Shown here: one piece after another, positions 19,892-30,643 of the stretch
Layout of the letters: each line of letters begins with the position of its first letter
Position numbering within the stretch: position 1 is the stretch's first letter
From: Escherichia phage vB_EcoM_NBG1
Reading direction: 5' to 3' (one strand)
Sequence record: MH243438.1
DNA: 64,000 bases
Notes under the pieces: model-generated
Databases searched by the model: none
What the model was told of the DNA's origin: nothing
Seen by the model: only the letters and a program-made list of their open reading frames with translations
Program-made: the position numbers and the translations under genes

Positions 19892-20185
19892 TTATTTACG
19901 GAATGAAAGGAATGCTGGTGCTCGGAATGGAGTATCATCTTTAGAGTATTTAACTAATACGACCATTGGTACCTCTGTTTCTAAATGACCTGTCACTACA
20001 CCGATAAAAATTTGATCAGTGTGCTCAGGGTCACGAAAGTTTTTAAGAGGTTCCATAGCAATATGGAATGCACCTGGGAATACTCGATTCAATTCGTCAA
20101 TCACAGCTTCGTTAAAAACATCATCCGCTGGGATAGCATCTTCAACTACTAGTTCTTGACCATTAAAGCGAAGCATAGATTTCAT
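19892..20185 (-). CDS. Hypothetical early protein downstream of alt (alt.-1-like)
   Basis: 97 aa from ATG 20185 with SD GAGGAAA; early promoter at 20215-20245. Confidence 0.6.
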   Translation of the reverse strand: MKSMLRFNGQELVVEDAIPADDVFNEAVIDELNRVFPGAFHIAMEPLKNFRDPEHTDQIFIGVVTGHLETEVPMVVLVKYSKDDTPFRAPAFLSFRK

Positions 20186-20214
20186 AACGTTTTCCTCATG
20201 TTGTTGATGGGATG

Positions 20215-20245
20215 ATAGTATCACACATCCATGTGTTTGTAAACT
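20215..20245 (-). promoter_or_regulatory. T4-type early promoter
   Basis: GTTTAC -35 and TATCAT-type -10 on the - strand, followed by the conserved caacaacATGAGGAAA leader; upstream of the alt.-1-like gene. Confidence 0.6.
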
Positions 20246-22331
20246 ATCCTTGGATAAATTTAAACGGAACTGATTCTAAATCCATTAAAGATGCTAACAA
20301 TTTCAAACCTTTAGGTGCACTAGTTTTTTCTACAAATGAGGCAAAAGATACCGGCTCATCTGATTCGATTTCACCCGTCATAGCAACTACCTCGCCTGTT
20401 TCCATGAGAACATCACCATCGTAAATGACAGCTTCGTCCAACTGGTCCGAGGACATGACTTCAGCTTGAATAAATTTAAGGTTGGATTCTAAACCTGCAC
20501 CAGTGTCAGATGACGCATCTGTAATTTTATTTATCTGCAAGAGAATGCCTCTAGGCAAAATAATTTCTTGCTCATTAGGGTGATTACTCAACTGTCCCGG
20601 ATAAATCACGTTAACTTTATGGGCGCCATCAATAGCCCATCCAACGTTAACACGGATTTGTTCTGGTGCATGCATAGCTGTTCTTACTTGACTAGGAGAA
20701 ATAGTAACACCTTCGTCGTTATTGTCAATGTTAAGCTCTTTGCGAACTTCTTCAGGAGCAAGTCCAAGGGCAACGTTCTCTTTAAACCCACCGAAAATAA
20801 TAGGAGCTAGTGAAGTGGAAACATAGTTTCTGAAATAGAATACCTTATTTTTAACCATTGCTTCGTAAATAGGCATTCTGATAGACTGAGCTCTATATAA
20901 CGTTAGTCCTTCAGGTAAACGGTCTCCATTTAAAAACGCCGAATCAAGACCATCAATAGCGCGTTTAACTTCATCTTCATCCGCAACATCGTAAAAATCT
21001 GGTTTATAACGACCTAACAACATATTATTGATATCTGTATATGCAGAAGAGGCATATTCACGAATAGCTCGTTTTTCAGAAACAGAGTATTGTTTAGGGT
21101 CCCGATTCATTGTTATATTAAAGGTGCCTCTAGCCGATTCTCGGGCATAAGTATACATCACATTAGACAAGAACGCTGATTTACGTTGTTTCCAAGTTCT
21201 TTCAGATACTTCAGCTAAAACGTCGTCAGGCAGTTGGAAATTATCACGTCTAAAATCTTCAAACCATTCGTCTTTAATAGAGTCTGCAATTTCATTTGCA
21301 GCTTCAACAAAAGCAGCTAATGCTTTAACAGATGTTGTTTTTTCGGTTTTAATTTTCTTAGCAAACTTTTCTAAAGTCGGCTTAATAACACCACCATAAG
21401 AAACTTCATCAGCAAATTTAAAGGATTCATCAATACGATTATAAATCTTATTTTCGATATCAGCAACTAAAGTGCCTTTTGCTGTGGATGATGCTTGGGC
21501 TAGTACGATTTCATATGCTTCAGGAAGTAATTCGGCTGTAGCCGGGCCACTAACTTCTTTAGCAGAATTTTCGTATTTCTGGAATAACTCACCTTCTTGG
21601 CGGTCAGCTTCTAAAGATTGACTTGCTGCAATAGCACGACGAGAAATTTTAGTACGAGCAATAACAGGCTTATCTTTACGTTTTTCTTCTACAGCAGCAA
21701 TAGAACCAGCGATAGCCGTTTCTTTGGTGACCTTTTCGCCAGTCTTTTTACTCACATAAACTTCGCCAACATCAGAATCTACTTTCGTGTACAACTCTGT
21801 GTTAATGTTAGGGATGCCTTTAATATCTTCAATGTTGGCATTTTTACGAACCATCATCACATAGGTGTGTTTACCTGTGAATTGATACATTGCCGACAAT
21901 ACTTTAAAACGACCACCGGTTTTAGTAGAAACTAAACGAGCAAGAAGAGTTTGAAGCTGTTGTCCACGTCCTTTCAATTTCTTGGTAGGGAATCGGAACA
22001 GAACTGCATCCATACGAAGAGCTTTAACTTGTTCATATACTGTATTGAAAATGGTGTTGATTGCATCAATAGGAGCAGGACCAAGGCCATTTTTCAATTC
22101 AGCGAGATTACCCTTTTCAGACAGACTCATAATAACAACATGAGCGTATTTGTCGCCGAGTTTAACTTGTTTTACAGCATCGCCTTCGGAAAGGTAAGAG
22201 AATAAACGAACTACAATATTTGTATCGATATCACCAATTTTCCAGACTTGTGGAACTTTAGCTTTAGGGTTCAAATTGACGACAGGAAGACTGCCTTCAG
22301 ATTCAAACACTTCATTTAATTGTTCAGACAT
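20244..22331 (-). CDS. alt: ADP-ribosyltransferase Alt (packaged)
   Basis: 695 aa; C-terminus ...LESVPFKFIQG and internal segments (SRRAIAASQSLE, MVKNKVFYFRNYVSTSL, VNVIYPG) match remembered T4 Alt. Confidence 0.9.
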   Translation of the reverse strand: MSEQLNEVFESEGSLPVVNLNPKAKVPQVWKIGDIDTNIVVRLFSYLSEGDAVKQVKLGDKYAHVVIMSLSEKGNLAELKNGLGPAPIDAINTIFNTVYEQVKALRMDAVLFRFPTKKLKGRGQQLQTLLARLVSTKTGGRFKVLSAMYQFTGKHTYVMMVRKNANIEDIKGIPNINTELYTKVDSDVGEVYVSKKTGEKVTKETAIAGSIAAVEEKRKDKPVIARTKISRRAIAASQSLEADRQEGELFQKYENSAKEVSGPATAELLPEAYEIVLAQASSTAKGTLVADIENKIYNRIDESFKFADEVSYGGVIKPTLEKFAKKIKTEKTTSVKALAAFVEAANEIADSIKDEWFEDFRRDNFQLPDDVLAEVSERTWKQRKSAFLSNVMYTYARESARGTFNITMNRDPKQYSVSEKRAIREYASSAYTDINNMLLGRYKPDFYDVADEDEVKRAIDGLDSAFLNGDRLPEGLTLYRAQSIRMPIYEAMVKNKVFYFRNYVSTSLAPIIFGGFKENVALGLAPEEVRKELNIDNNDEGVTISPSQVRTAMHAPEQIRVNVGWAIDGAHKVNVIYPGQLSNHPNEQEIILPRGILLQINKITDASSDTGAGLESNLKFIQAEVMSSDQLDEAVIYDGDVLMETGEVVAMTGEIESDEPVSFASFVEKTSAPKGLKLLASLMDLESVPFKFIQG

Positions 22332-22365
22332 AGTGTTTTCCTTTTAGTAATAATTTATATTTATG

Positions 22366-22390
22366 CCAAAAAGAGCCCGAAGGCTCTTAA
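22366..22390 (-). terminator. Terminator-like hairpin upstream of alt
   Basis: - strand AGAGCC-TTCG-GGCTCT followed by TTTTT. Confidence 0.55.
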
Positions 22391-22575
22391 TCCACAATCG
22401 GAAGCAAAGTACGATAAACTTCAAAATTAGAGCCTTTTTCGTACTTATCGAAATTGTCCATAAAAATATGATAGGAATCGTTATTAGGAAAATCTAATAT
22501 AATCTGAGAGCAAGAGGTGGAAACATCTCCACCATCCTTCTTAGCTACAATAACTGTTTCTAAATAAGCTTTCAT
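22387..22575 (-). CDS. Hypothetical protein
   Basis: 62 aa from ATG overlapping the ligase stop (TAATG); terminator hairpin at its 3' end. Confidence 0.5.
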   Translation of the reverse strand: MKAYLETVIVAKKDGGDVSTSCSQIILDFPNNDSYHIFMDNFDKYEKGSNFEVYRTLLPIVD

Positions 22576-24068
22576 TATAAACCTGTCTGGGACCACGGTC
22601 CAAATACGTCTTCAAACGAATCCGCTTCTGTTTTATCAAAACGGAACCCTTTAATAATTGGAAGGAAAATACCTACAGTACCTTCACGGCCTTTAGAATG
22701 AACCCAACCATTACATTCACAATCAGCGATACGTCCAATTAATTTACCTTCACGAGCTTCGGTCATTAATCGTTCACGGTCTAAATCATGACGCTCGTCT
22801 AAAGGAATAAGAACCTTTACACCGTCAACTGTTTTATGAGTTGTATCTTTAAAACCTGACCCACAATCGGTTGTAATACGACGACAACGTGATACGAGTT
22901 CGACACCACCTAATTTGTTAGGGTCTTTAGAGTGTTCATAGTATCCTACAACTTCTAAAGCGATATCAATAACTTCTTTAAATTTAATTAGGTTCTTAGA
23001 GCGTTTGTTTTCCCAATATGAATCACGGTTTTTAAGAATAATACCTTCAAGACCTTGGTCAACATATTTTTTATAAACCACTTTAGCTTCGTCAAGATTA
23101 CGAACTAACTGATTTTCAATTGGCTCAATTCGCTTAAAGCCTTCAGCCATATTTTCAAGAGCAGCAAAACGAACATCGTATTTCTGACCTTTAATTTTGC
23201 CATCAGAATAGACTTCATCTAAAGGAACATAGTCCCAGGCTTGAAGAACCATACCTTCAGCTTCTTTAGGAGAAATAGTCCCTTGAAGAGATTTATTTGC
23301 TAAACCGTTTGAAGTGCTACGGTCCGCAACTTGTACTTCTTCGGATTCTTCATTATCACCAAATAAGAACGACAGGTCATTTCCTGAGCTCACAGCCTTT
23401 TTAATATCAAATGAATGGTAAACTAATTCACCGTCGATTAAAACCCCATTAGGGTGTCTTTCACGAGCTTCTTTAGTCATTTCCATTAGTTCATCCGCTA
23501 ATAGAGTAAGACCATGATATTCGTTGCCGGCACGAGAAAAGAATTGAACACCATCATCGCGAACTTCAGCGAAACAACGAGCACCATCGGCTTTTAATTG
23601 AGCAAATGCAGGCCATTTAATATTTTTAGTAATCAATTTCTCATCATATGCAGATGCTAACATCTGTGGTTGCAATTGAATAAGTCCAGGCCACACCTTA
23701 TTCGCGATAGACACTGAAGCACCTACTTCAAGGTCGCGCATCATTACACGACGAAGGACTTCTACATCATCAGGTTTACCGTCAGCGATATAACCCATGA
23801 GCTCTTTAATTGCAGCATTACCAGTGAGTTTACGAGTGGCTAATGTGAACTCAATAAAATCCAACATGTCATCTAATTCAAGAAGACCATACGCTTGAGA
23901 CCTTTCACCTGGTCCTGGCCATTTCTTAATATAATACTGGATACCACGTGCATATGTTAAACGATACACACGTTCAAGTAATTTGTTGTCCTTATTTTTC
24001 TTAAGGATTTCCTGTTTTGTTTTAGTAGAACCGATCGCAGCTATTTGGTTTAAAATATCTAAAATCAT
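22575..24068 (-). CDS. 30: ATP-dependent DNA ligase gp30
   Basis: 497 aa; MILDILNQIAAIGSTKTKQEILKKNKDNKLLERVYRLTYARGIQYYIKKW... and adenylation motif KADGAR match remembered T4 DNA ligase. Confidence 0.97.
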   Translation of the reverse strand: MILDILNQIAAIGSTKTKQEILKKNKDNKLLERVYRLTYARGIQYYIKKWPGPGERSQAYGLLELDDMLDFIEFTLATRKLTGNAAIKELMGYIADGKPDDVEVLRRVMMRDLEVGASVSIANKVWPGLIQLQPQMLASAYDEKLITKNIKWPAFAQLKADGARCFAEVRDDGVQFFSRAGNEYHGLTLLADELMEMTKEARERHPNGVLIDGELVYHSFDIKKAVSSGNDLSFLFGDNEESEEVQVADRSTSNGLANKSLQGTISPKEAEGMVLQAWDYVPLDEVYSDGKIKGQKYDVRFAALENMAEGFKRIEPIENQLVRNLDEAKVVYKKYVDQGLEGIILKNRDSYWENKRSKNLIKFKEVIDIALEVVGYYEHSKDPNKLGGVELVSRCRRITTDCGSGFKDTTHKTVDGVKVLIPLDERHDLDRERLMTEAREGKLIGRIADCECNGWVHSKGREGTVGIFLPIIKGFRFDKTEADSFEDVFGPWSQTGL

Positions 24069-24334
24069 TTGATGTCCTCGATTTTGGTTACGGTTCTATT
24101 ATAAGCCACTTCATCTAGAAGCGATTTCAGCGTTTTCTGATAAGTTGTAATCCATTTACCGAGTCCTTCAACATAGTATTCTGAAATGTAGATGAACCCT
24201 TGTTCAACACACTCTTTAAATATTTCTGTGTCTTTTACTGAACGAAACAATGGCCAGTCTCGAAAGAACATGTTAACGTGACCGTAGTCACGTGTGGTAT
24301 TTTTGCCATCTGTAATATCATGAACTACAAACAT
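24065..24334 (-). CDS. Hypothetical protein (30.1 position)
   Basis: 89 aa ORF coupled to the ligase start. Confidence 0.55.
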   Translation of the reverse strand: MFVVHDITDGKNTTRDYGHVNMFFRDWPLFRSVKDTEIFKECVEQGFIYISEYYVEGLGKWITTYQKTLKSLLDEVAYNRTVTKIEDIK

Positions 24335-24343
24335 AATTAACCC

Positions 24344-25168
24344 TTAACAATTTATAGACCAAGTCCATTTAGACGAATCTAAAGGAAAGTTTTGAATCGT
24401 CCACCACGGCTGCATATCAGTTGGTCCTGGGGTTCGCCAGGTATATGGAGTACGTGTTGTCGAGGGGCCACCAATTTGATTAGGCCATGCACCTGGACTT
24501 GTTGCACCAGATTCTTTAAGCAAATCCGCCAATCGTTTTAAAAGGTCTTCACGATCTGAATCTGAATTATTCTTAGGCAGAACCAAACGAGATTCAATAT
24601 CATCCCACGTGTGTACACGTTGTGCAGTACGAGGAATGGCATCACGTTCACCACGAGCCAACCAATAAATCGGTACATTAAGAATTTCTGCCGCATGGTC
24701 ACAATGATGAGCTAAATCGTCAACGTAACAAATTACGTTATATTTTGTTTTAGCTAGTTCGAATAATTGTTCCTTTGAAGAATCATGACCACACATCATT
24801 ACTTCAGAGAAAGCGCCTGGGAACAAAGCATTCAAATTAAATTGTCTATTCAATCGAGCATCAATTGAATCACCTAGCGCCGTCACGGCTACAAAATTAT
24901 AGTCTTCTTTTAGTTTATTGATAACTCGAAGAGCATCAGAATAAGGCGCTAAGTAACGAATAAAATCAGAGCTATTATATTTTTCTATTAATTGTTTACC
25001 AAGGTTATCGTCGGTATTGAACAGTTTACCAGGAGAAATAAATTTTTCGTCCTGAATCATTTTTAAAATATGTTCTAATGGAAGGTTATATTTTTGGGCA
25101 AAATAAGGAAGTCCAGATTGCCAGCTTAAACATACACCATCAATATCAGTCAAAATAGTAGGCTTCAT
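24344..25168 (-). CDS. HAD-superfamily-like hydrolase (30.2 position)
   Basis: 274 aa; N-terminal ILTDIDGV resembles HAD motif I (DxDGT/V); unusual Trp/Pro-rich C-terminal tail. Confidence 0.55.
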   Translation of the reverse strand: MKPTILTDIDGVCLSWQSGLPYFAQKYNLPLEHILKMIQDEKFISPGKLFNTDDNLGKQLIEKYNSSDFIRYLAPYSDALRVINKLKEDYNFVAVTALGDSIDARLNRQFNLNALFPGAFSEVMMCGHDSSKEQLFELAKTKYNVICYVDDLAHHCDHAAEILNVPIYWLARGERDAIPRTAQRVHTWDDIESRLVLPKNNSDSDREDLLKRLADLLKESGATSPGAWPNQIGGPSTTRTPYTWRTPGPTDMQPWWTIQNFPLDSSKWTWSINC

Positions 25169-25632
25169 AAAGAGTCTCTTAGTAGGTTTAACACGTCAAT
25201 AAATTCATCTTCAGTTAGTATTGTATCATCTTTTGTTAGATGGCTGGCCATGCTGTGCTTCAAAATTTTTCCTTTAGAGGCTTGTAAGGCATCACGAAAC
25301 CCCTTGTTTTGGATCGCGGCTTCAAAATATGCATTTGTGTATAATTCTTTCCACGCTTCGGAGTATCTTGAAAATGGAACTCCTAACCAGAAGAGAGTCC
25401 CACGGTCCTGAGCTCTTGCGTAAGACCTTCCAGCTTGCTGTGCAGCCAATCCAGACAACCCAAATATACGTCTTTGCTGTTCAACATTTTTCACCTTACA
25501 TCCTTGGAGAAATCCTTCAAGACCTCCGAATTGAATACCATCCATAACAAAAGGCCATTGAGCAAAGTTACTTAATGCACATGACGGCCACTTGAAATTA
25601 CTTCTTATTTCTAATTCAGACATCTTTAACAC
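25165..25632 (-). CDS. Possible NADAR/YbiA-like domain protein (30.3 position)
   Basis: 155 aa; pattern LSNF...DG..F...E.F.Q..K recalls the NADAR/YbiA family; assignment is from motif memory only. Confidence 0.45.
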   Translation of the reverse strand: MLKMSELEIRSNFKWPSCALSNFAQWPFVMDGIQFGGLEGFLQGCKVKNVEQQRRIFGLSGLAAQQAGRSYARAQDRGTLFWLGVPFSRYSEAWKELYTNAYFEAAIQNKGFRDALQASKGKILKHSMASHLTKDDTILTEDEFIDVLNLLRDSL

Positions 25633-25834
25633 TTATAATTTCAACATCCGCCCAATGTCCGTATCCAGGTATACGGTCTTCGATAGATAAATTTCTGTCA
25701 TTTTTAGGCATTTTAATTGACGTAACGTATGGTTCTAAACGGTTTTCCGCGTAATATGGAAAAACGTCGGTTACACGATAAGTAACTTCAATCATTTCCG
25801 TACCAAACAATTTCTGGATTAATTTATTCAACAT
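25616..25834 (-). CDS. Hypothetical protein
   Basis: 72 aa ORF in - strand early operon. Confidence 0.45.
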   Translation of the reverse strand: MLNKLIQKLFGTEMIEVTYRVTDVFPYYAENRLEPYVTSIKMPKNDRNLSIEDRIPGYGHWADVEIISVKDV

Positions 25835-26021
25835 GTTTCAACCCTTTAATAGGAGATAACTCTTTACCCATACGTATGTCAGAAGTCCAATCAACCCATT
25901 GAACAGCATACGCTTCATTGATAATTCCAGCAGCGGTTTTAAATTCAGGGAGAACTTTAAAAATCACCCCAGGAATTCCAACACCTTTTAATTGGACTGT
26001 TTGTGCTATTAAAAATTTCAT
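25824..26021 (-). CDS. Hypothetical protein
   Basis: 65 aa ORF; early promoter at 26045-26077. Confidence 0.45.
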   Translation of the reverse strand: MKFLIAQTVQLKGVGIPGVIFKVLPEFKTAAGIINEAYAVQWVDWTSDIRMGKELSPIKGLKHVE

Positions 26022-26044
26022 ATTTTTCCACTTACTAAAGAAAT

Positions 26045-26077
26045 CATTATACTCTAATCCGTCCTTGGATGTAAACT
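26045..26077 (-). promoter_or_regulatory. T4-type early promoter
   Basis: GTTTAC -35 with GAGTATAATG -10 on the - strand. Confidence 0.55.
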
Positions 26078-26690
26078 ACTTAATGAAATTAATTTCTACC
26101 GGATGAACAACAGGTTGAGCAGTGATATATTGAGTAATTGCTTTCATGACTAGAGCTTCAGAACCAGGATTTTTCTCAACGAATTCACGTGCTTGGTTAT
26201 GAGCTTCAAGTTCACTTAGTAAACCACTTCGTTGACATCCACGGTCTTGAGTACCCTGTTCAGATAAAAAGGCGACGATGTATTTTTCATCGTCATACGG
26301 TTTAGACGGTTGAGCAAATGTTCCTTTACTTCCAAAAGGAGAGTTATGACGCCACATCACGCCGTGAGGAGTTTCAACCTTCGTGTATTCATGCGGTCCA
26401 TTTTTCTTAGTTTCTTTCCATGGAACTTCATGGACCTTAGGGTTAGGACATTCAATAAAATGCTCATCTAAATCGGTCGAGAATATTAAAGTAAAACAAT
26501 TACTGAATTTACCAACACCTGCCTGATAAATTTTACCTTCAGAAGTTCTAATTTCACAAACTGAGCCAGCATCAGTAACTTCTAAAACTTCAAAAGGCTC
26601 GATAAGGTCATATGAGAACATGTTTTTAAGGCGTGGAGTAATATCCCCATTTTTAAAATTCATTTTATAAAAAGTATTAACTTTAAACAT
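26076..26690 (-). CDS. Hypothetical protein
   Basis: 204 aa ORF, no recognised motif; shares short GSVCEI motif with the next ORF. Confidence 0.55.
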   Translation of the reverse strand: MFKVNTFYKMNFKNGDITPRLKNMFSYDLIEPFEVLEVTDAGSVCEIRTSEGKIYQAGVGKFSNCFTLIFSTDLDEHFIECPNPKVHEVPWKETKKNGPHEYTKVETPHGVMWRHNSPFGSKGTFAQPSKPYDDEKYIVAFLSEQGTQDRGCQRSGLLSELEAHNQAREFVEKNPGSEALVMKAITQYITAQPVVHPVEINFIK

Positions 26691-26725
26691 AATTTCCTCA
26701 ATGGGAGCCGAAGCTCCCAGTTAAA

Positions 26726-27091
26726 TTAGATATCAAATTCGTTAAGAACTACATCAAAGATTGCTTCGAGATGTTCATGTTTAGCTCGGTTACTCAGGAT
26801 ATGACGAATCCAAGTTTTAACCAGAAGTTTACGATTAACACCGTTCCAGCAAGGATGAGTACCTAAATCACGCTGACGGAAATCATCATCTAATGCAATT
26901 TTGAAGTTGGAACCTTCCATTGTGATTGAAACCGTGATGCCATTTTCAAATCGCATATAAACATAATTAGGAGTCATGCACTGCTCAATTTCACATACTG
27001 AACCATTTTTATGCTTCCACAAACAAACCATATCGATAGAACCAGCGATACCGTTAGAAACATATTTGCGTTCGAAGTTGGTGTAGTTCAT
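26726..27091 (-). CDS. Hypothetical protein
   Basis: 121 aa; early promoter at 27131-27162; shares CMTP motif with next ORF. Confidence 0.55.
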   Translation of the reverse strand: MNYTNFERKYVSNGIAGSIDMVCLWKHKNGSVCEIEQCMTPNYVYMRFENGITVSITMEGSNFKIALDDDFRQRDLGTHPCWNGVNRKLLVKTWIRHILSNRAKHEHLEAIFDVVLNEFDI

Positions 27092-27130
27092 TTTATTCTC
27101 CAGATGTTTAAGTTGTTTGTTGGTACAGGT

Positions 27131-27162
27131 CTATAATAACATAACCTGTACCAAAGTAAACT
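27131..27162 (-). promoter_or_regulatory. T4-type early promoter
   Basis: GTTTAC -35 and GTTATTATAG -10 on the - strand; upstream of the 121 aa ORF. Confidence 0.6.
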
Positions 27163-27165
27163 GTT

Positions 27166-27534
27166 TTATGCAACTTTAATCCAATTGTCTAAATTTAAAA
27201 CACCTTTGGCTTTCATTTTTTCGATCAGGTTATCTGCTGTAATGCGTCCATTTTGATACCATGTAACATCTTCAGAGTAACCAGTTTCTTCGTCAACATA
27301 TGTTTCTGAACGAATTTTACCGGTAATAATAGTTTTTAATTCGTATGTGTCACCTGTGAAAAAGTTTGCTAACACAATTTTCCAAGAGAAATCATCTGAA
27401 GGACCTTCAGGGGTCATACAACCTACGAACTCAAATTGCTCTTTGTATAACATCCACTGGAATTCTTTAATTTCGATAGCTTTATAACCGTCGTGGTCTT
27501 TACATTTGATGTATGAGTTCAGATTGATTTTCAT
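27166..27534 (-). CDS. Hypothetical protein
   Basis: 122 aa; early promoter at 27574-27605. Confidence 0.55.
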   Translation of the reverse strand: MKINLNSYIKCKDHDGYKAIEIKEFQWMLYKEQFEFVGCMTPEGPSDDFSWKIVLANFFTGDTYELKTIITGKIRSETYVDEETGYSEDVTWYQNGRITADNLIEKMKAKGVLNLDNWIKVA

Positions 27535-27573
27535 TTTATTCTCCGATTGTTTTATTGATTAGGTGGTACAAGT

Positions 27574-27605
27574 CTATAGTAACACATCCTACAGGAGAGT
27601 AAACA
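27574..27605 (-). promoter_or_regulatory. T4-type early promoter
   Basis: GTTTAC -35 and GTTACTATAG -10 on the - strand; upstream of the 122 aa ORF. Confidence 0.6.
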
Positions 27606-27634
27606 TCTTTTTTTAAACTTTTTCTGCCCTAAAC

Positions 27635-27662
27635 GCACAAAAGGGAGACCGAAGTCTCCCTA
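27635..27662 (-). terminator. Terminator after the 59 aa basic ORF
   Basis: - strand GGGAGAC-TTCG-GTCTCCC followed by TTTT. Confidence 0.7.
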
Positions 27663-27665
27663 AAA

Positions 27666-27845
27666 TTATGCAACAACCTTTCCAAAACGAGAAGCATCAT
27701 CTCGAAGAACTGCACGTGCTCTGCGCATGATCTTCTCAACGGTTTGATTAATACGAGAGTTCGACCCACGCTTGTATCCAGCGCGTTTAGAGGTACCATC
27801 AACTTTCTTTTCAACTGCTTTCTTTGCTTTAGCTTGTTTTGCCAT
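27666..27845 (-). CDS. Hypothetical small lysine/arginine-rich protein (not in ORF track)
   Basis: Hand-translated 59 aa (MAKQAKAKKAVEKKVDGTSKRAGYKRGSNSRINQTVEKIMRRARAVLRDDASRFGKVVA); SD AAGAG upstream; terminator hairpin right after stop; replaces the track's 27629-27814 ORF. Confidence 0.5.
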   Translation of the reverse strand: MAKQAKAKKAVEKKVDGTSKRAGYKRGSNSRINQTVEKIMRRARAVLRDDASRFGKVVA

Positions 27846-28008
27846 TATAAATTCTCTTTAAATGAAAATGCAGGACTTATTGACATTGCCTGCGCAAGCC
27901 CTCAACGGGAACATAGGTTTTGGATATTTAACGACAGGATAACCATAAACCCGTCATCATACCTACCATGACTTACACAGCTAACCTTTTGCTGACGCAT
28001 GATAGCAA

Positions 28009-28257
28009 TTATTTCAAAGTAATAACAAAATGACGAACTGCTTTGCGTGCTGCAGAAGCCAGAGGCTTAGCATATTTCAATTCATCTTTAGCTTCCAGTT
28101 CAGAAGCCAGAGTAGCCTGAGCAGGATTCAGGTGTTTGAAATAACGCAGGATTTCCAGTGCTTCGGCTTCAACATCAATTGACGCACCGTAGTTTTCGTG
28201 ACCGTTATTCCATGCGTTGCGTTGCAGTTCAAGAGCGTGTTGTAATTGTTTAATCAT
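28009..28257 (-). CDS. rIII: Lysis inhibition accessory protein rIII
   Basis: 82 aa; MIKQLQHALELQRNAWNNGHENYGASIDVEAEALEILRYF... matches remembered T4 rIII. Confidence 0.9.
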   Translation of the reverse strand: MIKQLQHALELQRNAWNNGHENYGASIDVEAEALEILRYFKHLNPAQATLASELEAKDELKYAKPLASAARKAVRHFVITLK

Positions 28258-28381
28258 TTTAAATTCTCAATTCGAGATAATATTTAGTAGCCACGTTCGT
28301 CTGAATTTCACCTTCTTTCGACAAGTCTCTCAGTTGTAGGCTACCGCTTAGAAGAGTGTTCTCTTCATATAGTTATTTATA

Positions 28382-28714
28382 TCACTTATAAAGACACGGA
28401 ATAGCTTTATAGTGGCATGTTACGAATTTCTGTTTAATTTCTTTAGGTTGTTTAAGTCCCAAAGCCACAAATGGATGTGGAACATTTCGAATTTGTCCAA
28501 CTGGCAGTGGAGTCAAATCACCGACTTCAACAAAACCTTTAGGAACATCAGGACCTACAGAATGAACTACACATAGTTCAGGAACTTCACCTTGAACACG
28601 TTTACCAATCACAAGTCCTGATTCGGTAACTTCTTCATCACCTGCTTGAGCGGGTTCAGAAACCAGAATGACATATTCACCAACAGCACGAATTGGGAGT
28701 TGTACTTCAGACAT
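28382..28714 (-). CDS. 31: Head assembly co-chaperonin gp31 (GroES analogue)
   Basis: 110 aa; [29 protein letters not shown]...[15 protein letters not shown] matches remembered T4 gp31. Confidence 0.95.
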
Positions 28715-28742
28715 CTTATTTCCTTGTTGTTTGACGATAGAT

Positions 28743-28770
28743 TAATAATACCATACTATTCGTAAAGCAT
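28743..28770 (-). promoter_or_regulatory. Candidate MotA-dependent middle promoter upstream of gene 31
   Basis: The - strand reads aTGCTTTAc (MotA-box-like) about 13 nt upstream of TATTAT; T4 gene 31 is known to have a middle promoter. Confidence 0.3.
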
Positions 28771-28771
28771 A

Positions 28772-29080
28772 TTACATAAGAAGCAAACGTTCTACCGGAG
28801 TACCATCAACCGAAATTACTTTATCAAGGCGGAAAGAACGCCACTGACCTAACTTGGTATCGAATGCTCGAACTGATTCACGAGGTTCAGAACGAACTTC
28901 TGTCGATGGGTTACTATTTTCATATTTTACTTCAAGTTCATCACGGGAGGCAAGCATCGTACGAACATCACCATTAGCCTTTTCAAATACAACACAATGA
29001 ACGCCTACAGACAGAATAGTTTTAATACGTTCACGAAGAACCATAGTTTCTTGTTCAGTTAAAATCATATTATTCACCAC
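28772..29080 (-). CDS. Hypothetical protein (31.1 position)
   Basis: 102 aa ORF between cd and gene 31. Confidence 0.6.
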   Translation of the reverse strand: MVNNMILTEQETMVLRERIKTILSVGVHCVVFEKANGDVRTMLASRDELEVKYENSNPSTEVRSEPRESVRAFDTKLGQWRSFRLDKVISVDGTPVERLLLM

Positions 29081-29651
29081 AAAAGTTTCGAATTTGTTCC
29101 CAATTCAGAGAACGAAGATTATTACGAGAGTACTGAATTACTTCAATACCAGCTTGTTTAAGAATGTCTGCCCAATTTTCAGGAGATCTGTCATATAATT
29201 CCGCGTATACAACCTTTTTAATACCTGACTGCGTAATAGCTTTAGTGCAATCAGGACACGGAGAAAGCGTAGTATATAACGTAGCACCTTCAATAGAATT
29301 ACCTTTACGAGCTGCAAACAAAATTGCATTCAGTTCCGCATGGATTTCGTTATTGGCAGACCAGGCACTATGAGCGGCCCGATGTTCTTTAGCCAAAACA
29401 AAATTATCTGCCCGTCCAAATGCTGTAGTGCCTTCTTTATGTCCAGCAATGATGACCGGTCTTGGATTATTCTTCAACCAGCCATTTTCGGATGCATGTT
29501 CGCAACAGTTAACACCACCTGAAGGAGAGCCATTATAACCTGTAGAAATAATGCGTCCATCTTTTTCAATGACGGCACCAACTTTCCATGAACAACATTT
29601 TGATTCTTGAGAAATCAGATATGCAATCTGAAGGTATGTGCTAGCTTTCAT
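29070..29651 (-). CDS. cd: dCMP deaminase
   Basis: 193 aa; zinc motifs HAELNA and SPCPDC; matches remembered T4 Cd in length and sequence. Confidence 0.95.
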   Translation of the reverse strand: MKASTYLQIAYLISQESKCCSWKVGAVIEKDGRIISTGYNGSPSGGVNCCEHASENGWLKNNPRPVIIAGHKEGTTAFGRADNFVLAKEHRAAHSAWSANNEIHAELNAILFAARKGNSIEGATLYTTLSPCPDCTKAITQSGIKKVVYAELYDRSPENWADILKQAGIEVIQYSRNNLRSLNWEQIRNFCGE

Positions 29652-30643
29652 TATTGAACCTTATTAATATAAGTTAACAGCTCTTTAGTTTGTTCCCAAC
29701 TGATGCACGCATCGGTAACGGAAACGCCATAGGACATATTATCAGAAATTTTTTGATTTCCTTCATGTAGGAACGATTCTATCATAATTCCTTTGACCAA
29801 ATCATTAGCTGCTAAATTTTTACCAATACCAATTTGATTGCTATAATGCCCATCAGCGTTTGCATGGCTACAGTCAACCATTACATAATGATTCAGACCT
29901 ACTGCCCTTGCTTTGTTAGAAGCTTCTTGAATATCAGAAGAATGATAGTTCGGGCCGTTGGTCCCGCCACGCAATACGATATGCGTATTCTGATTACCTT
30001 CAGCTTCAACAATGCCTACAGTACCATCGACGTCCATACCCATATACCGATGAGGCCAGGCGGCACTATACATCGCGTCTGTAGCTACTTTAATAGAACC
30101 ATTGGTTGCGTTCTTGAAGCCTACGCACATCGGTAGACCTGAAGCAATTTCACGATGTGTCTGACTTTCAGTCGTACGGGCGCCAATAGCAACCCATGAG
30201 AAAATACCAGAAAGATACTTAATCGTGAACGGGTCTAATACTTCAGTTGCTAATGGAAGTCCCATACGTAGAAGTTTACGACACAATGTTCGTGCAACTA
30301 TAAGACCGTGGTTCATATCAAAACTTCCGTCAAGATATGGATCATTTACAAGACCTTTCCAACCTACGGTAGTTCGAGGCTTTTCAAAATAAACGCGCAT
30401 CACTAACAGAACATTAGGAAGACGAGTTTGAAGTTCAGCCAAACGTTTGCCGTATTCAACAGCAGCAATAGGGTCATGAATTGAACAAGGACCTACAACA
30501 ATAAGTTTGCGTGGGTCTTCACCGTTCATAATCGAATTAACTTGTTCGCGATGAGAAGCCACTTGTGATGCGTAAGCTTCCGACAAAGGAATAATCTCAG
30601 CCAGTTCTTTTGGAGAAATAAGTTTTCTGATGACAGGTAACAT
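29651..30643 (-). CDS. 3-deoxy-D-arabino-heptulosonate-7-phosphate (DAHP) synthase, class I (AroG/F/H-like)
   Basis: 330 aa; VGPCSIHD, VYFEKPRTTVGWKGL, AIGARTTESQTHRE, DCSHAN and SVTDACI line up with catalytic and metal-binding motifs of E. coli AroG/AroH as remembered; stop overlaps cd start. Confidence 0.85.
   Translation of the reverse strand: MLPVIRKLISPKELAEIIPLSEAYASQVASHREQVNSIMNGEDPRKLIVVGPCSIHDPIAAVEYGKRLAELQTRLPNVLLVMRVYFEKPRTTVGWKGLVNDPYLDGSFDMNHGLIVARTLCRKLLRMGLPLATEVLDPFTIKYLSGIFSWVAIGARTTESQTHREIASGLPMCVGFKNATNGSIKVATDAMYSAAWPHRYMGMDVDGTVGIVEAEGNQNTHIVLRGGTNGPNYHSSDIQEASNKARAVGLNHYVMVDCSHANADGHYSNQIGIGKNLAANDLVKGIMIESFLHEGNQKISDNMSYGVSVTDACISWEQTKELLTYINKVQ

What the first reader, a model, noticed from the sequence alone, without database searches (positions are those of the whole stretch)
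24344..25632. HAD-like hydrolase and possible NADAR-like protein directly upstream of DNA ligase and the Alt ADP-ribosyltransferase
Two coupled early genes: a 274 aa protein with an N-terminal HAD motif I (ILTDIDGV), and a 155 aa protein whose spaced SNF...DG..F...E.F.Q..K pattern recalls NADAR/YbiA-type N-glycosidases. NADAR domains process ADP-ribose adducts and, by my recollection of recent work, can reverse ADP-ribosylation of DNA bases by DarT-type toxins. Their position next to alt suggests an ADP-ribose handling or anti-defence module. The HAD-like protein also has an odd Trp/Pro-rich C-terminal tail (PGAWPNQIGGPSTTRTPYTWRTPGPTDMQPWWTIQNF).
Basis: inference. Interest (0 to 1): 0.55.

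Follow-up and report, generated by a model that had tools for sequence, protein, structure and literature searches.

The report
T4 adfN (NADAR) plus HAD phosphatase
These are the T4 genes 30.3 and 30.2 in a T4-like coliphage: 30.3 is the already published anti-DarT enzyme AdfN, and 30.2 is a conserved, dispensable HAD phosphatase resembling 5'-nucleotidases, so the finding is correct but ordinary.

Summary
The window is a Tequatrovirus (T4-like coliphage). Both ORFs exist as described.

**The 155 aa ORF.** It more likely starts at the ATG at 25623, giving 152 aa. It is the orthologue of T4 gp30.3, 96% identical and full length. T4 gp30.3 was published in 2024-25 as AdfN, a NADAR ADP-ribosylglycohydrolase that strips DarT1 ADP-ribose from phage DNA. 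I confirmed Pfam Phage_30_3 membership, the NADAR fold and the catalytic E36, K43 and H123.

**The 274 aa ORF.** It is T4 gp30.2, a true HAD phosphatase.
- All four catalytic motifs are conserved across the family.
- It has a C1 cap, and the nearest solved folds are 5'(3')-deoxyribonucleotidases.
- A helix and a disordered, fast-evolving Trp/Pro-rich tail follow the enzyme domain.

**The proposed three-gene module with alt is not supported.**
- In 10 of 29 T4-like genomes, 30.2 and 30.3 lie 53-69 kb apart.
- In a published T4 transposon screen on DarTG1, 30.3 mutants are lost. 30.2 and alt mutants are unaffected.

The NADAR part is already known. The function of gp30.2 remains open, and it is most likely a nucleotide phosphatase.

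The parts
25165..25623 (-). Gene 30.3 / adfN: 152 aa NADAR-family DNA ADP-ribosylglycohydrolase (anti-DarT1 factor). The ATG start at 25623 is preferred over the GTG at 25632.
   Evidence: Pfam PF08010 E=2e-69. 96% identity over 152/152 aa to T4 gp30.3. AF2 pLDDT 94.6. Foldseek PDB hits are only YbiA 2b3w, PnNADAR 8bau and G. lovleyi NADAR 8bat. Function of the T4 orthologue from PMC11825919.
25516..25518 (-). Codon for E36 of AdfN, a catalytic Glu.
   Evidence: Read from the sequence. E36A impairs T4 AdfN. Nearly invariant in 66 homologues. Aligns to the Glu of YbiA 'SEHYFQ'.
25495..25497 (-). Codon for K43 of AdfN, a catalytic Lys.
   Evidence: Read from the sequence. K43A impairs T4 AdfN. 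Nearly invariant.
25255..25257 (-). Codon for H123 of AdfN, the His in the last beta-strand that marks the phage gp30.3 NADAR clade.
   Evidence: Invariant in A3. Lies in strand E120-123 of the model. Clade definition from PMC11125620.
25168..25212 (-). C-terminal helix of AdfN (residues 138-152). It is intact here and lost in the frameshifted RB69 allele.
   Evidence: Helix H138-151 in the model. Full-length alignment to T4. Truncation reduces activity.
24344..25168 (-). Gene 30.2: 274 aa HAD-superfamily phosphatase with a C-terminal extension.
   Evidence: phrog_420 E=1e-77. 69% identity to T4 gp30.2 overall and 85.6% over residues 1-195.
24584..25168 (-). gp30.2 residues 1-195: HAD Rossmannoid core plus C1 helical cap. 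Catalytic residues are D8 (25145-25147), D10 (25139-25141), T96, K132 and D150/D151.
   Evidence: Conserved columns in 68- and 75-sequence alignments. pLDDT above 90. Foldseek top hits are cdN 2jao, 3bwv and mdN. 22 of 75 family members hit Pfam NT5C.
24509..24562 (-). gp30.2 residues 203-220: amphipathic linker helix (EDLLKRLADLLKE).
   Evidence: DSSP helix 203-220 with pLDDT about 70-83.
24347..24508 (-). gp30.2 residues 221-274: disordered Trp/Pro/Thr-rich tail with the short motif TWRTPG...PWW. It is an allelic cassette that evolves fast.
   Evidence: pLDDT below 50. The DNA is not alignable to the T4 tail. dN/dS is 0.13-0.48 against 0.03-0.04 for the core. Tails are compared across homologues.
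25165..25168 (-). ATGA overlap of the 30.3 stop and the 30.2 start (translational coupling).
   Evidence: Read from the sequence. The same arrangement occurs in T4.
24065..24334 (-). Flanking gene 30.1 (DUF3045, 89 aa).
   Evidence: PF11243 E=1e-26.
22575..24068 (-). Flanking gene 30: ATP-dependent DNA ligase.
   Evidence: PF01068 and phrog_114.
20244..22331 (-). Flanking gene alt: ADP-ribosyltransferase.
   Evidence: PF03496 and phrog_802 E=2e-261.
25616..25834 (-). Flanking gene 30.4 (72 aa). Its stop overlaps the 30.3 start by 8 nt.
   Evidence: phrog_2042. Overlap read from the sequence.

Best explanation
This stretch holds the orthologues of bacteriophage T4 genes 30.3 and 30.2, in the conserved minus-strand run 30.5-30.4-30.3-30.2-30.1-30(ligase)-alt.1-alt of a Tequatrovirus.

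**Gene 30.3 (25165-25623) is adfN.** It encodes a small NADAR-fold N-glycosidase. It hydrolyses the bond between ADP-ribose and the guanine that the host DarT1 toxin modifies on phage DNA. This restores the base and lets replication proceed in DarTG1-carrying hosts. The catalytic residues are E36, K43 and the clade-specific H123, and the C-terminal helix is needed for full activity. The activity is shown for the 96%-identical T4 protein and is inferred here.

**Gene 30.2 (24344-25168) is a separate enzyme.** It is a Mg2+-dependent HAD phosphatase.
- D8 is the nucleophile and D10 the general acid/base.
- T96 and K132 bind phosphate, and D150/D151 bind the metal.
- A C1 cap closes over a small-molecule pocket.
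- Its nearest relatives by structure and profile are the 5'(3')-deoxyribonucleotidases (NT5C family), so it most likely dephosphorylates a nucleoside monophosphate or a similar nucleotide. This substrate assignment is inferred.
- A linker helix and a disordered Trp/Pro-rich tail are a lineage-specific add-on, probably a docking peptide.

The two genes are neighbours through synteny and are translationally coupled here. They do not behave as a functional unit, and alt is not part of AdfN's function.
For: **Identity of the phage and locus**
- 99% DNA identity to Tequatrovirus records.
- The gene order matches T4.

**30.3**
- PF08010 at 232 bits against a cutoff of 36.
- 146/152 residues identical to T4 gp30.3, full length.
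- A profile of 66 homologues hits YbiA 2b3w at E=0.003 through the SNF..DG..E..FQ..K motif.
- 22 of 66 homologues also hit Pfam NADAR, best E=3e-6.
- The AF2 model has pLDDT 94.6. Its top three PDB matches, and the only ones with probability above 0.9, are the three NADAR structures.
- For T4 adfN the literature shows a genetic mapping, E36A and K43A mutants, in-vitro de-ADP-ribosylation and DarTG1 sensitivity of the deletion mutant (PMC11825919). In-vitro activity on ADP-ribosyl-guanine is in PMC11125620.
- Tn-seq gives log2FC -7.25 on DarTG1.

**30.2**
- D8, D10, K132, D150 and D151 are invariant and T96 nearly so in 68 homologues.
- D8, D10, R108 and K132 stay invariant down to about 21% identity.
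- The AF2 core has pLDDT above 90.
- The Foldseek top hits are cdN 2jao (1.5e-7), 3bwv and mdN.
- The next-best matches among predicted viral structures, after the protein's own uncharacterised homologues, include several annotated as 5' nucleotidase or HAD hydrolase.
- NT5C is the Pfam family most often hit by family members, 22 of 75 with best E=4e-10.
- In the HMMER alignment to cdN, the invariant W16, F43 and Y64 fall on cdN aromatic residues.

**Independence of the two genes**.
Against: **30.3**
- The activity of this particular allele is not tested. There are six substitutions relative to T4, none at a known catalytic position.

**30.2**
- The window protein does not reach any Pfam or NCBIfam HAD or NT5C threshold on its own. 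HAD_2 gives 16 bits against a cutoff of 23.8, and there is no NT5C hit.
- Sequence-profile hits to the PDB are only marginal (E=0.1-0.4).
- Foldseek ranks generic HAD enzymes, such as dehalogenases and epoxide hydrolases, almost as high as the nucleotidases.
- The role of the cdN/mdN aromatic pocket residues is recalled from memory. I could not verify it in the paper library.
- T4 30.2 mutants show no phenotype in LB, in M9 or on DarTG1, so nothing experimental points to a substrate.
Confidence: 0.85

Rival explanations
1. gp30.2 and AdfN, and perhaps Alt, form one ADP-ribose-handling module. The HAD phosphatase would process the ADP-ribose released by AdfN or made by Alt, for example ADP-ribose, ribose-5-phosphate or ADP-ribose-1''-phosphate. 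Alternatively, it would be the 'additional T-even protein' that AdfN was suggested to need.
For: - The genes overlap by ATGA in the window and in T4.
- 13 of 29 genomes keep them abutting.
- Both genes are present in a very similar set of about 1450-1500 phage records.
- The AdfN paper notes that AdfN works fully only during T-even infection and may need another phage protein.
Against: - In 10 of 29 genomes the genes are 53-69 kb apart.
- Where they are unlinked, 30.2 stays with ligase and alt, and the NADAR gene sits among unrelated hypothetical genes.
- In Vibrio phage K575 they are 100 kb apart.
- In the T4 Tn-seq screen on DarTG1, only 30.3 and 30.4 are significant. 30.2 gives log2FC -0.12 (q=1) over 71 sites, alt gives -0.01, and nudE gives no effect in the RnlAB screen, the only table in which its row was read.
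- NADAR cleavage restores guanine by itself and needs no phosphatase.
- Presence of the tail does not correlate with adjacency.
Confidence: 0.07
2. gp30.2 is a nucleic-acid end-healing 3'-phosphatase, like the HAD domain of T4 polynucleotide kinase. It would prepare nicks for the adjacent DNA ligase.
For: - 30.2 keeps its position beside 30.1 and ligase even where 30.3 has moved.
- HAD phosphatases include the PNK and PNKP 3'-phosphatase domains.
- Some viral PNK phosphatase models appear low in the Foldseek list.
Against: - The model has a roughly 70-residue C1 cap inserted right after motif I. Such caps typify small-molecule HAD enzymes, and polynucleotide phosphatases lack them (established HAD classification, from my own knowledge).
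- hhalign of the family profile against T4 PseT gives only 14.6% probability, confined to motif IV.
- The best structural matches are nucleotidases, not PNK.
Confidence: 0.06
3. gp30.2 is a HAD phosphatase for a non-nucleotide metabolite, such as a sugar phosphate, phosphoglycolate or a cofactor. Alternatively, it is mainly a scaffold whose tail matters more than its catalysis.
For: - Generic HAD subfamily-IA enzymes score nearly as well as nucleotidases.
- One viral match is named phosphoglycolate phosphatase, and a JGI record is named FMN phosphatase YigB.
- HAD substrate specificity is notoriously hard to read from sequence.
Against: - The top PDB hit by both sequence and fold is cdN.
- NT5C is the most frequent Pfam match in the family.
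- Invariant aromatic residues align with cdN cap aromatics.
- The catalytic residues are invariant with core dN/dS of about 0.04, which argues against a purely structural role.
- Most family members lack the tail altogether.
Confidence: 0.25

Closest known systems
T4 AdfN (gp30.3), anti-DarT factor NADAR; Pfam PF08010 Phage_30_3 within the NADAR/YbiA superfamily
   Same: - 96% identical over the same 152 aa.
- The genomic slot and the overlaps with 30.4 and 30.2 are the same.
- E36, K43, H123 and the C-terminal helix are all present.
- The fold matches YbiA, PnNADAR and DarG1-type NADAR.
   Different: There are six conservative or surface substitutions: K11R, E89P, I120V, M124I, H128G and D139A, written as window residue, position, T4 residue. 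T4's annotated internal ORF 30.3' is broken by a stop codon here.
DarG1-type NADAR antitoxin (e.g. Geobacter lovleyi NADAR, PDB 8bat) and E. coli YbiA (2b3w)
   Same: They share the fold and the catalytic Glu/Lys motif. They also share the chemistry: N-glycosidic cleavage of ADP-ribosyl-guanine.
   Different: - The phage clade has His where YbiA has Glu and DarT-linked NADARs have Asp in the last strand.
- The phage protein is an orphan with no cognate toxin.
- T4 AdfN cannot replace DarG1 in uninfected cells.
T4 gp30.2 (phrog_420), an uncharacterised conserved protein of Straboviridae
   Same: The N-terminal 195 residues are 85.6% identical. The position between 30.3 and 30.1 is the same. The architecture is the same: HAD domain, then helix, then an aromatic/Pro-rich tail with a shared TWRTPG motif.
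   Different: The tails are not homologous at the DNA level. T4 ends with a GIEYL..RPT motif shared with many Klebsiella-type relatives, which the window allele lacks.
5'(3')-deoxyribonucleotidases cdN/mdN (Pfam NT5C, PF06941; PDB 2jao, 1mh9, 2i7d)
   Same: - HAD core with a four-helix C1 cap.
- A DxDGV motif followed eight residues later by an aromatic residue.
- The best PDB match by both sequence and fold.
- 22 of 75 family members reach NT5C at E<=0.01.
   Different: - Identity is only 16-18%.
- The window protein itself does not hit the NT5C model.
- The family has signature residues of its own (R108, N111, S67), and this lineage has an extra helix and tail.
- No enzymology exists.

Membership tests
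NADAR superfamily, phage gp30.3/AdfN clade | Match to Pfam PF08010 above the gathering score | tested here: met
   232 bits against a cutoff of 36, E=2e-69, covering positions 1-138 of the 138-position profile.
NADAR superfamily, phage gp30.3/AdfN clade | [quoted passage not shown] | tested here: met
   AF2 pLDDT 94.6 and pTM 0.89. Foldseek against the PDB: 2b3w at 5.7e-5 (TM 0.68), 8bau at prob 1.00, 8bat at prob 0.97, and nothing else above prob 0.03.
NADAR superfamily, phage gp30.3/AdfN clade | Catalytic Glu and Lys of the E-x-F-Q-x-x-K motif (E36 and K43 in T4) | tested here: met
   Both are present at the same positions. Both are nearly invariant in 66 homologues. They align to YbiA SEHYFQAQKF.
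NADAR superfamily, phage gp30.3/AdfN clade | His in the last beta-strand, the clade marker (YbiA has Glu, DarT-linked NADARs have Asp) | tested here: met
   H123 is invariant in A3 and lies in strand 120-123. The criterion is from PMC11125620.
NADAR superfamily, phage gp30.3/AdfN clade | Intact C-terminal helix (absent from the inactive RB69 allele) | tested here: met
   Full-length alignment to T4 with no frameshift. Helix 138-151 is modelled.
NADAR superfamily, phage gp30.3/AdfN clade | ADP-ribosyl-guanine glycohydrolase activity and protection from DarTG1 | not testable with these tools
   Shown only for the T4 protein. Inferred here from 96% identity.
HAD (haloacid dehalogenase-like) phosphatase superfamily | Motif I, DxD (nucleophile and acid/base) | tested here: met
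   D8 and D10 are invariant in 68 close homologues and in 75 distant ones.
HAD (haloacid dehalogenase-like) phosphatase superfamily | Motif II (Ser/Thr), motif III (Lys) and motif IV (DD) | tested here: met
   T96 is at least 90% conserved. K132 is invariant. D150 and D151 are invariant in A2, and D151 is at least 90% conserved in A5.
HAD (haloacid dehalogenase-like) phosphatase superfamily | Rossmannoid core with a cap domain | tested here: met
   Residues 1-195 have pLDDT above 90, with strands at 4-7, 91-96, 120-125, 145-150 and 167-170 and helices 16-86 forming a C1 cap. 114 PDB matches have E<=0.001, and the 50 best listed are all HAD-fold entries.
HAD (haloacid dehalogenase-like) phosphatase superfamily | Curated profile match (Pfam HAD_2 or Hydrolase; NCBIfam) | tested here: inconclusive
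   HAD_2 gives 16 bits against a cutoff of 23.8, E=0.014. NCBIfam gives only E=0.09. 14 of 68 relatives hit PF00702 weakly.
NT5C family (5'(3')-deoxyribonucleotidase, PF06941) | Match to the PF06941 profile | tested here: inconclusive
   The window protein has no hit. 9 of 68 close relatives and 22 of 75 distant relatives hit at E<=0.1 and E<=0.01 respectively, best 4e-10.
NT5C family (5'(3')-deoxyribonucleotidase, PF06941) | Closest solved structures are dNT-type nucleotidases | tested here: met
   2jao ranks first at 1.5e-7. 3bwv, 2i7d, 4yih, 1q92 and 1mh9 all have probability 1.00, with TMt 0.56-0.69.
NT5C family (5'(3')-deoxyribonucleotidase, PF06941) | Aromatic cap residues that stack on the base (mdN F49/F75/W96; cdN F18/F44/Y65; roles recalled from memory) | tested here: inconclusive
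   W16, F43 and Y64 are invariant in A2, and they align to F, F and Y of cdN in the HMMER alignment. I could not confirm the roles of the cdN residues in the paper library.
NT5C family (5'(3')-deoxyribonucleotidase, PF06941) | dNMP phosphohydrolase activity | not testable with these tools
   The searches made here found no enzymology for gp30.2.
Functional 30.2-30.3-alt 'ADP-ribose module' | Gene linkage conserved across lineages | tested here: not met
   Of 29 genomes, 13 have the genes abutting, 6 have a 0.7-1.3 kb insert and 10 have them 53-69 kb apart. About half of 78 loci holding 30.2 have no 30.3 within 6 kb.
Functional 30.2-30.3-alt 'ADP-ribose module' | Shared loss-of-function phenotype | tested here: not met
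   Published T4 Tn-seq on DarTG1: 30.3 gives -7.25 (q=0), 30.2 gives -0.12 (q=1) and alt gives -0.01 (q=1). Two genes are significant in all.

The most novel reading that the evidence does not exclude
gp30.2 is a nucleotide-directed phosphatase that T4-like phages use for a host-takeover or counter-defence step not yet recognised. Examples would be destroying a nucleotide-derived immune signal or a toxic nucleotide analogue, or editing a dNMP pool. Its fast-evolving Trp/Pro tail (W-R/K-x-P-G...P-W-Y/W) would dock it onto a variable phage or host partner. The lack of phenotype in K-12 would then reflect the absence of the relevant host system, as was the case for adfN before DarTG1 was tested.
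Probability: 0.15. Interest if true: 0.55.

Novelty: already known. Interest (0 to 1): 0.2.

Why it matters
**What is already settled.** The NADAR gene is a textbook-in-the-making example of a phage carrying an orphan antitoxin to undo DNA ADP-ribosylation. The case was made in 2024-25, so finding another 96%-identical copy adds nothing new.

**What remains open.** The neighbouring HAD phosphatase is found in about 1400 phage genomes, is under strong purifying selection and has no known function or phenotype. Placing it next to the 5'(3')-deoxyribonucleotidases, and showing that it is genetically and syntenically independent of AdfN, narrows the experiments worth doing. It also prevents a wrong 'module' annotation from spreading.

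Tried and rejected
1. **Direct hits of the window proteins to NADAR or HAD profiles.**
   - gp30.3 hits only PF08010, not PF08719. Single-sequence PDB searches gave nothing useful.
   - The NADAR link needed a family profile and a structure model.
2. **gp30.2 as the partner AdfN was suggested to need.** Rejected on Tn-seq data and on broken synteny.
3. **The tail as a frameshift artefact of the T4 tail.**
   - The two tail DNAs are simply non-homologous.
   - The window-type tail is present in 149 phage records with in-frame indels and dN/dS below 1. It is therefore translated, but weakly constrained.
4. **Fusion partners of distant gp30.2 relatives as a clue to function.** The extra regions of P0230, P0272, P0284 and P0318 have no Pfam match.
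5. **Similarity to the T4 PseT phosphatase domain.** hhalign gives only 14.6% probability.
6. **Other profile libraries and RNA.** PADLOC and NCBIfam gave no informative hits. Rfam found no RNA family in 20000-30000.
7. **Promoter scan.** The count is not above shuffled expectation (27 against 20.5 +/- 4.3). The one good site, at 26046-26075 upstream of 30.5, is only suggestive.
8. **Literature.**
   - Searches for gp30.2 returned nothing.
   - I could not find open-access text to verify the mdN/cdN pocket residues.
9. **The afdb50 fold library** was unavailable.
Full report
**1. What is there.** The window is a Tequatrovirus. The 2.1 kb around the finding is 99% identical to Escherichia phages vB_Eco_F31, APCEc01 and relatives. 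The gene order equals that of T4: alt, alt.1, 30 (ligase), 30.1, 30.2, 30.3, 30.4, 30.5 and onwards, all on the minus strand. The two ORFs of the finding exist as described: 24344-25168 (274 aa) and 25165-25632 (155 aa from a GTG). The smaller gene almost certainly starts at the ATG at 25623 (152 aa, MSELEI...), as in T4 and in its homologues. Its stop overlaps the start of 30.2 (ATGA), and its start overlaps the end of 30.4 by 8 nt. No Rfam family lies in 20000-30000. The plus-strand ORFs inside the region are short and I did not analyse them further.

**2. The smaller protein is AdfN.**
- It matches Pfam Phage_30_3 (PF08010) at E=2e-69.
- It is 146/152 identical to T4 gp30.3, with no truncation.
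- T4 30.3 was mapped genetically as the determinant of DarTG1 resistance and renamed adfN, for anti-DarT factor NADAR. E36A and K43A mutants and a C-terminal truncation (the RB69 allele) are impaired. The purified protein removes ADP-ribose from DarT1-modified DNA (PMC11825919).
- An independent study showed in-vitro activity on ADP-ribosyl-guanine. It defines the phage clade by a His in the last strand (PMC11125620).
- A T4 transposon screen found 30.3 insertions depleted about 150-fold on DarTG1 (bioRxiv 10.1101/2025.11.20.689424).

I re-tested the NADAR assignment independently.
- 22 of 66 homologues also hit Pfam NADAR.
- The AlphaFold model (pLDDT 94.6) matches only the three solved NADAR structures.
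- E36 and K43 are nearly invariant, and H123 is invariant in the last strand. The C-terminal helix is intact.

**3. The larger protein is a real HAD phosphatase of the nucleotidase type.**
- It belongs to phrog_420 (unknown function) and only grazes Pfam HAD_2 (16 bits).
- In 68 homologues D8, D10, K132, D150 and D151 are invariant and T96 is nearly so. These are the four HAD motifs.
- An exhaustive profile search finds 1045 cluster representatives, mostly about 200 aa.
- In 75 of these, down to 21% identity, D8, D10, R108 and K132 remain invariant. W16, S67, T96, N111 and D151 are at least 90% conserved.
- The AlphaFold model has residues 1-195 at pLDDT above 90, with a Rossmannoid core and a helical C1 cap.
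- Its best PDB matches are mouse and human 5'(3')-deoxyribonucleotidases and a staphylococcal homologue. Other capped HAD enzymes follow closely.
- Among predicted viral structures the next-best matches, after its own uncharacterised homologues, include several annotated as 5' nucleotidase or HAD hydrolase.
- NT5C is the Pfam family most often matched within the wider family, 22 of 75 with best E=4e-10.
- In the HMMER alignment to cdN, the invariant W16, F43 and Y64 fall on cdN aromatic residues. From memory, these residues line the nucleoside pocket in cdN and mdN. I could not verify this in the paper library.
- A polynucleotide 3'-phosphatase role is unlikely, and because of the poor hhalign score to T4 PseT.

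**4. The tail.**
- After residue 195 come a linker, a helix (203-220) and a disordered segment rich in Thr, Pro and Trp.
- Such tails occur in the enterobacterial T4-like lineages. They are absent from the Acinetobacter, Aeromonas, Serratia and other versions.
- The window and T4 tails are not alignable as DNA, yet both contain TWRTPG. Looser versions (W-R/K/V-x-P, PW-Y/W) recur in relatives.
- The window-type tail occurs in 149 phage records. Close relatives carry an in-frame 9-nt indel and different extreme C-termini.
- dN/dS is 0.03-0.04 in the core and 0.13-0.48 in the tail. The tail is therefore translated, weakly constrained and exchanged as a cassette, which is the behaviour expected of a docking peptide. 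Its partner is unknown.

**5. Are the genes a module?**
- Both genes are near-universal in Straboviridae, with 1441 and 1510 phage records and similar host distributions. So are many T4 genes.
- Among 29 genomes recovered by both searches, 13 have 30.3 abutting 30.2, 6 have a 0.7-1.3 kb insertion and 10 have the genes 53-69 kb apart.
- In one unlinked genome, 30.2 still sits beside 30.1, ligase and alt. The NADAR gene lies among unrelated hypothetical genes.
- Functionally, the T4 Tn-seq sheet 'Control_vs_DarTG1' lists only two significant genes. These are 30.3 (log2FC -7.25) and the overlapping upstream gene 30.4 (-1.79, q=0.014, probably polar).
- In the same sheet 30.2 (71 sites) gives -0.12, 30.1 gives -0.01 and alt gives -0.01, all with q=1.
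- 30.2 is also non-essential (72/72 TA sites hit) and neutral in M9 against LB.
- So gp30.2 is not the extra T-even factor that the AdfN authors suspected. Alt is not involved either.

**6. Verdict.** The two identifications are right. The anti-DarT idea is right but already published. The module idea is not supported. Public records already annotate 30.2 variously as a 'haloacid dehalogenase-like hydrolase domain-containing protein', a 'putative phosphatase' or a '5' nucleotidase'. The only open question is the substrate and role of gp30.2 and its tail. Interest is low.

Noticed in passing
window 29651-30643 (-): A 330 aa class I DAHP synthase (PF00793, E=5e-75) lies immediately beyond dCMP deaminase (cd, 29070-29651), in the slot where T4 has cd.1. 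This is an aromatic-amino-acid pathway enzyme in a T4-like phage.
   Followed up: no
window 26076-26690 (-): A 204 aa ORF (phrog_17531, no Pfam match) occupies the position of T4 gene 30.6, which is only 95 aa. This is a variable slot in the locus.
   Followed up: no
window 25260-25487 (-), frame +1 inside 30.3: The internal overlapping ORF 30.3' annotated in T4 is interrupted by a stop codon in this phage. It is therefore not conserved and is probably not a real gene.
   Followed up: yes
window 25616-25834 (-) (gene 30.4): In the published T4 Tn-seq screen, 30.4 is the only gene besides adfN significantly depleted on DarTG1 (log2FC -1.79, q=0.014). It overlaps the adfN start, so a polar effect is likely, but a real contribution is not excluded.
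   Followed up: partly
window 26046-26075 (-): The best sigma-70-like promoter match in the region (TTTACA-18-TATAAT, 11/12) sits just upstream of 30.5. It could drive 30.5-30.4-30.3-30.2-30.1-30 as one early transcript. The overall promoter count is not above chance.
   Followed up: no
proteins P0284 (591 aa), P0318 (660 aa), P0230 (430 aa), P0272 (365 aa): Distant members of the gp30.2 family are fused to large extra regions that have no Pfam match. These could hold a clue to function.
   Followed up: partly
L126 (IMGVR_UViG_2974718797_000001, about 70.7-71.2 kb) versus L021 (about 129.6-130.4 kb): In this T4-like genome the NADAR gene has moved 58 kb away from the ligase locus, into a block of hypothetical genes. 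One of these is a DUF7338 protein.
   Followed up: partly
many gp30.2 homologues (e.g. P0045, P0047, P0061, T4 itself): A second conserved C-terminal motif, G(T)GIEYL-x-(R/Q)QPT, ends the tails of T4 and of a number of the other tailed relatives (12 of the 41 tails of at least 40 residues). It is missing from the window allele.
   Followed up: partly
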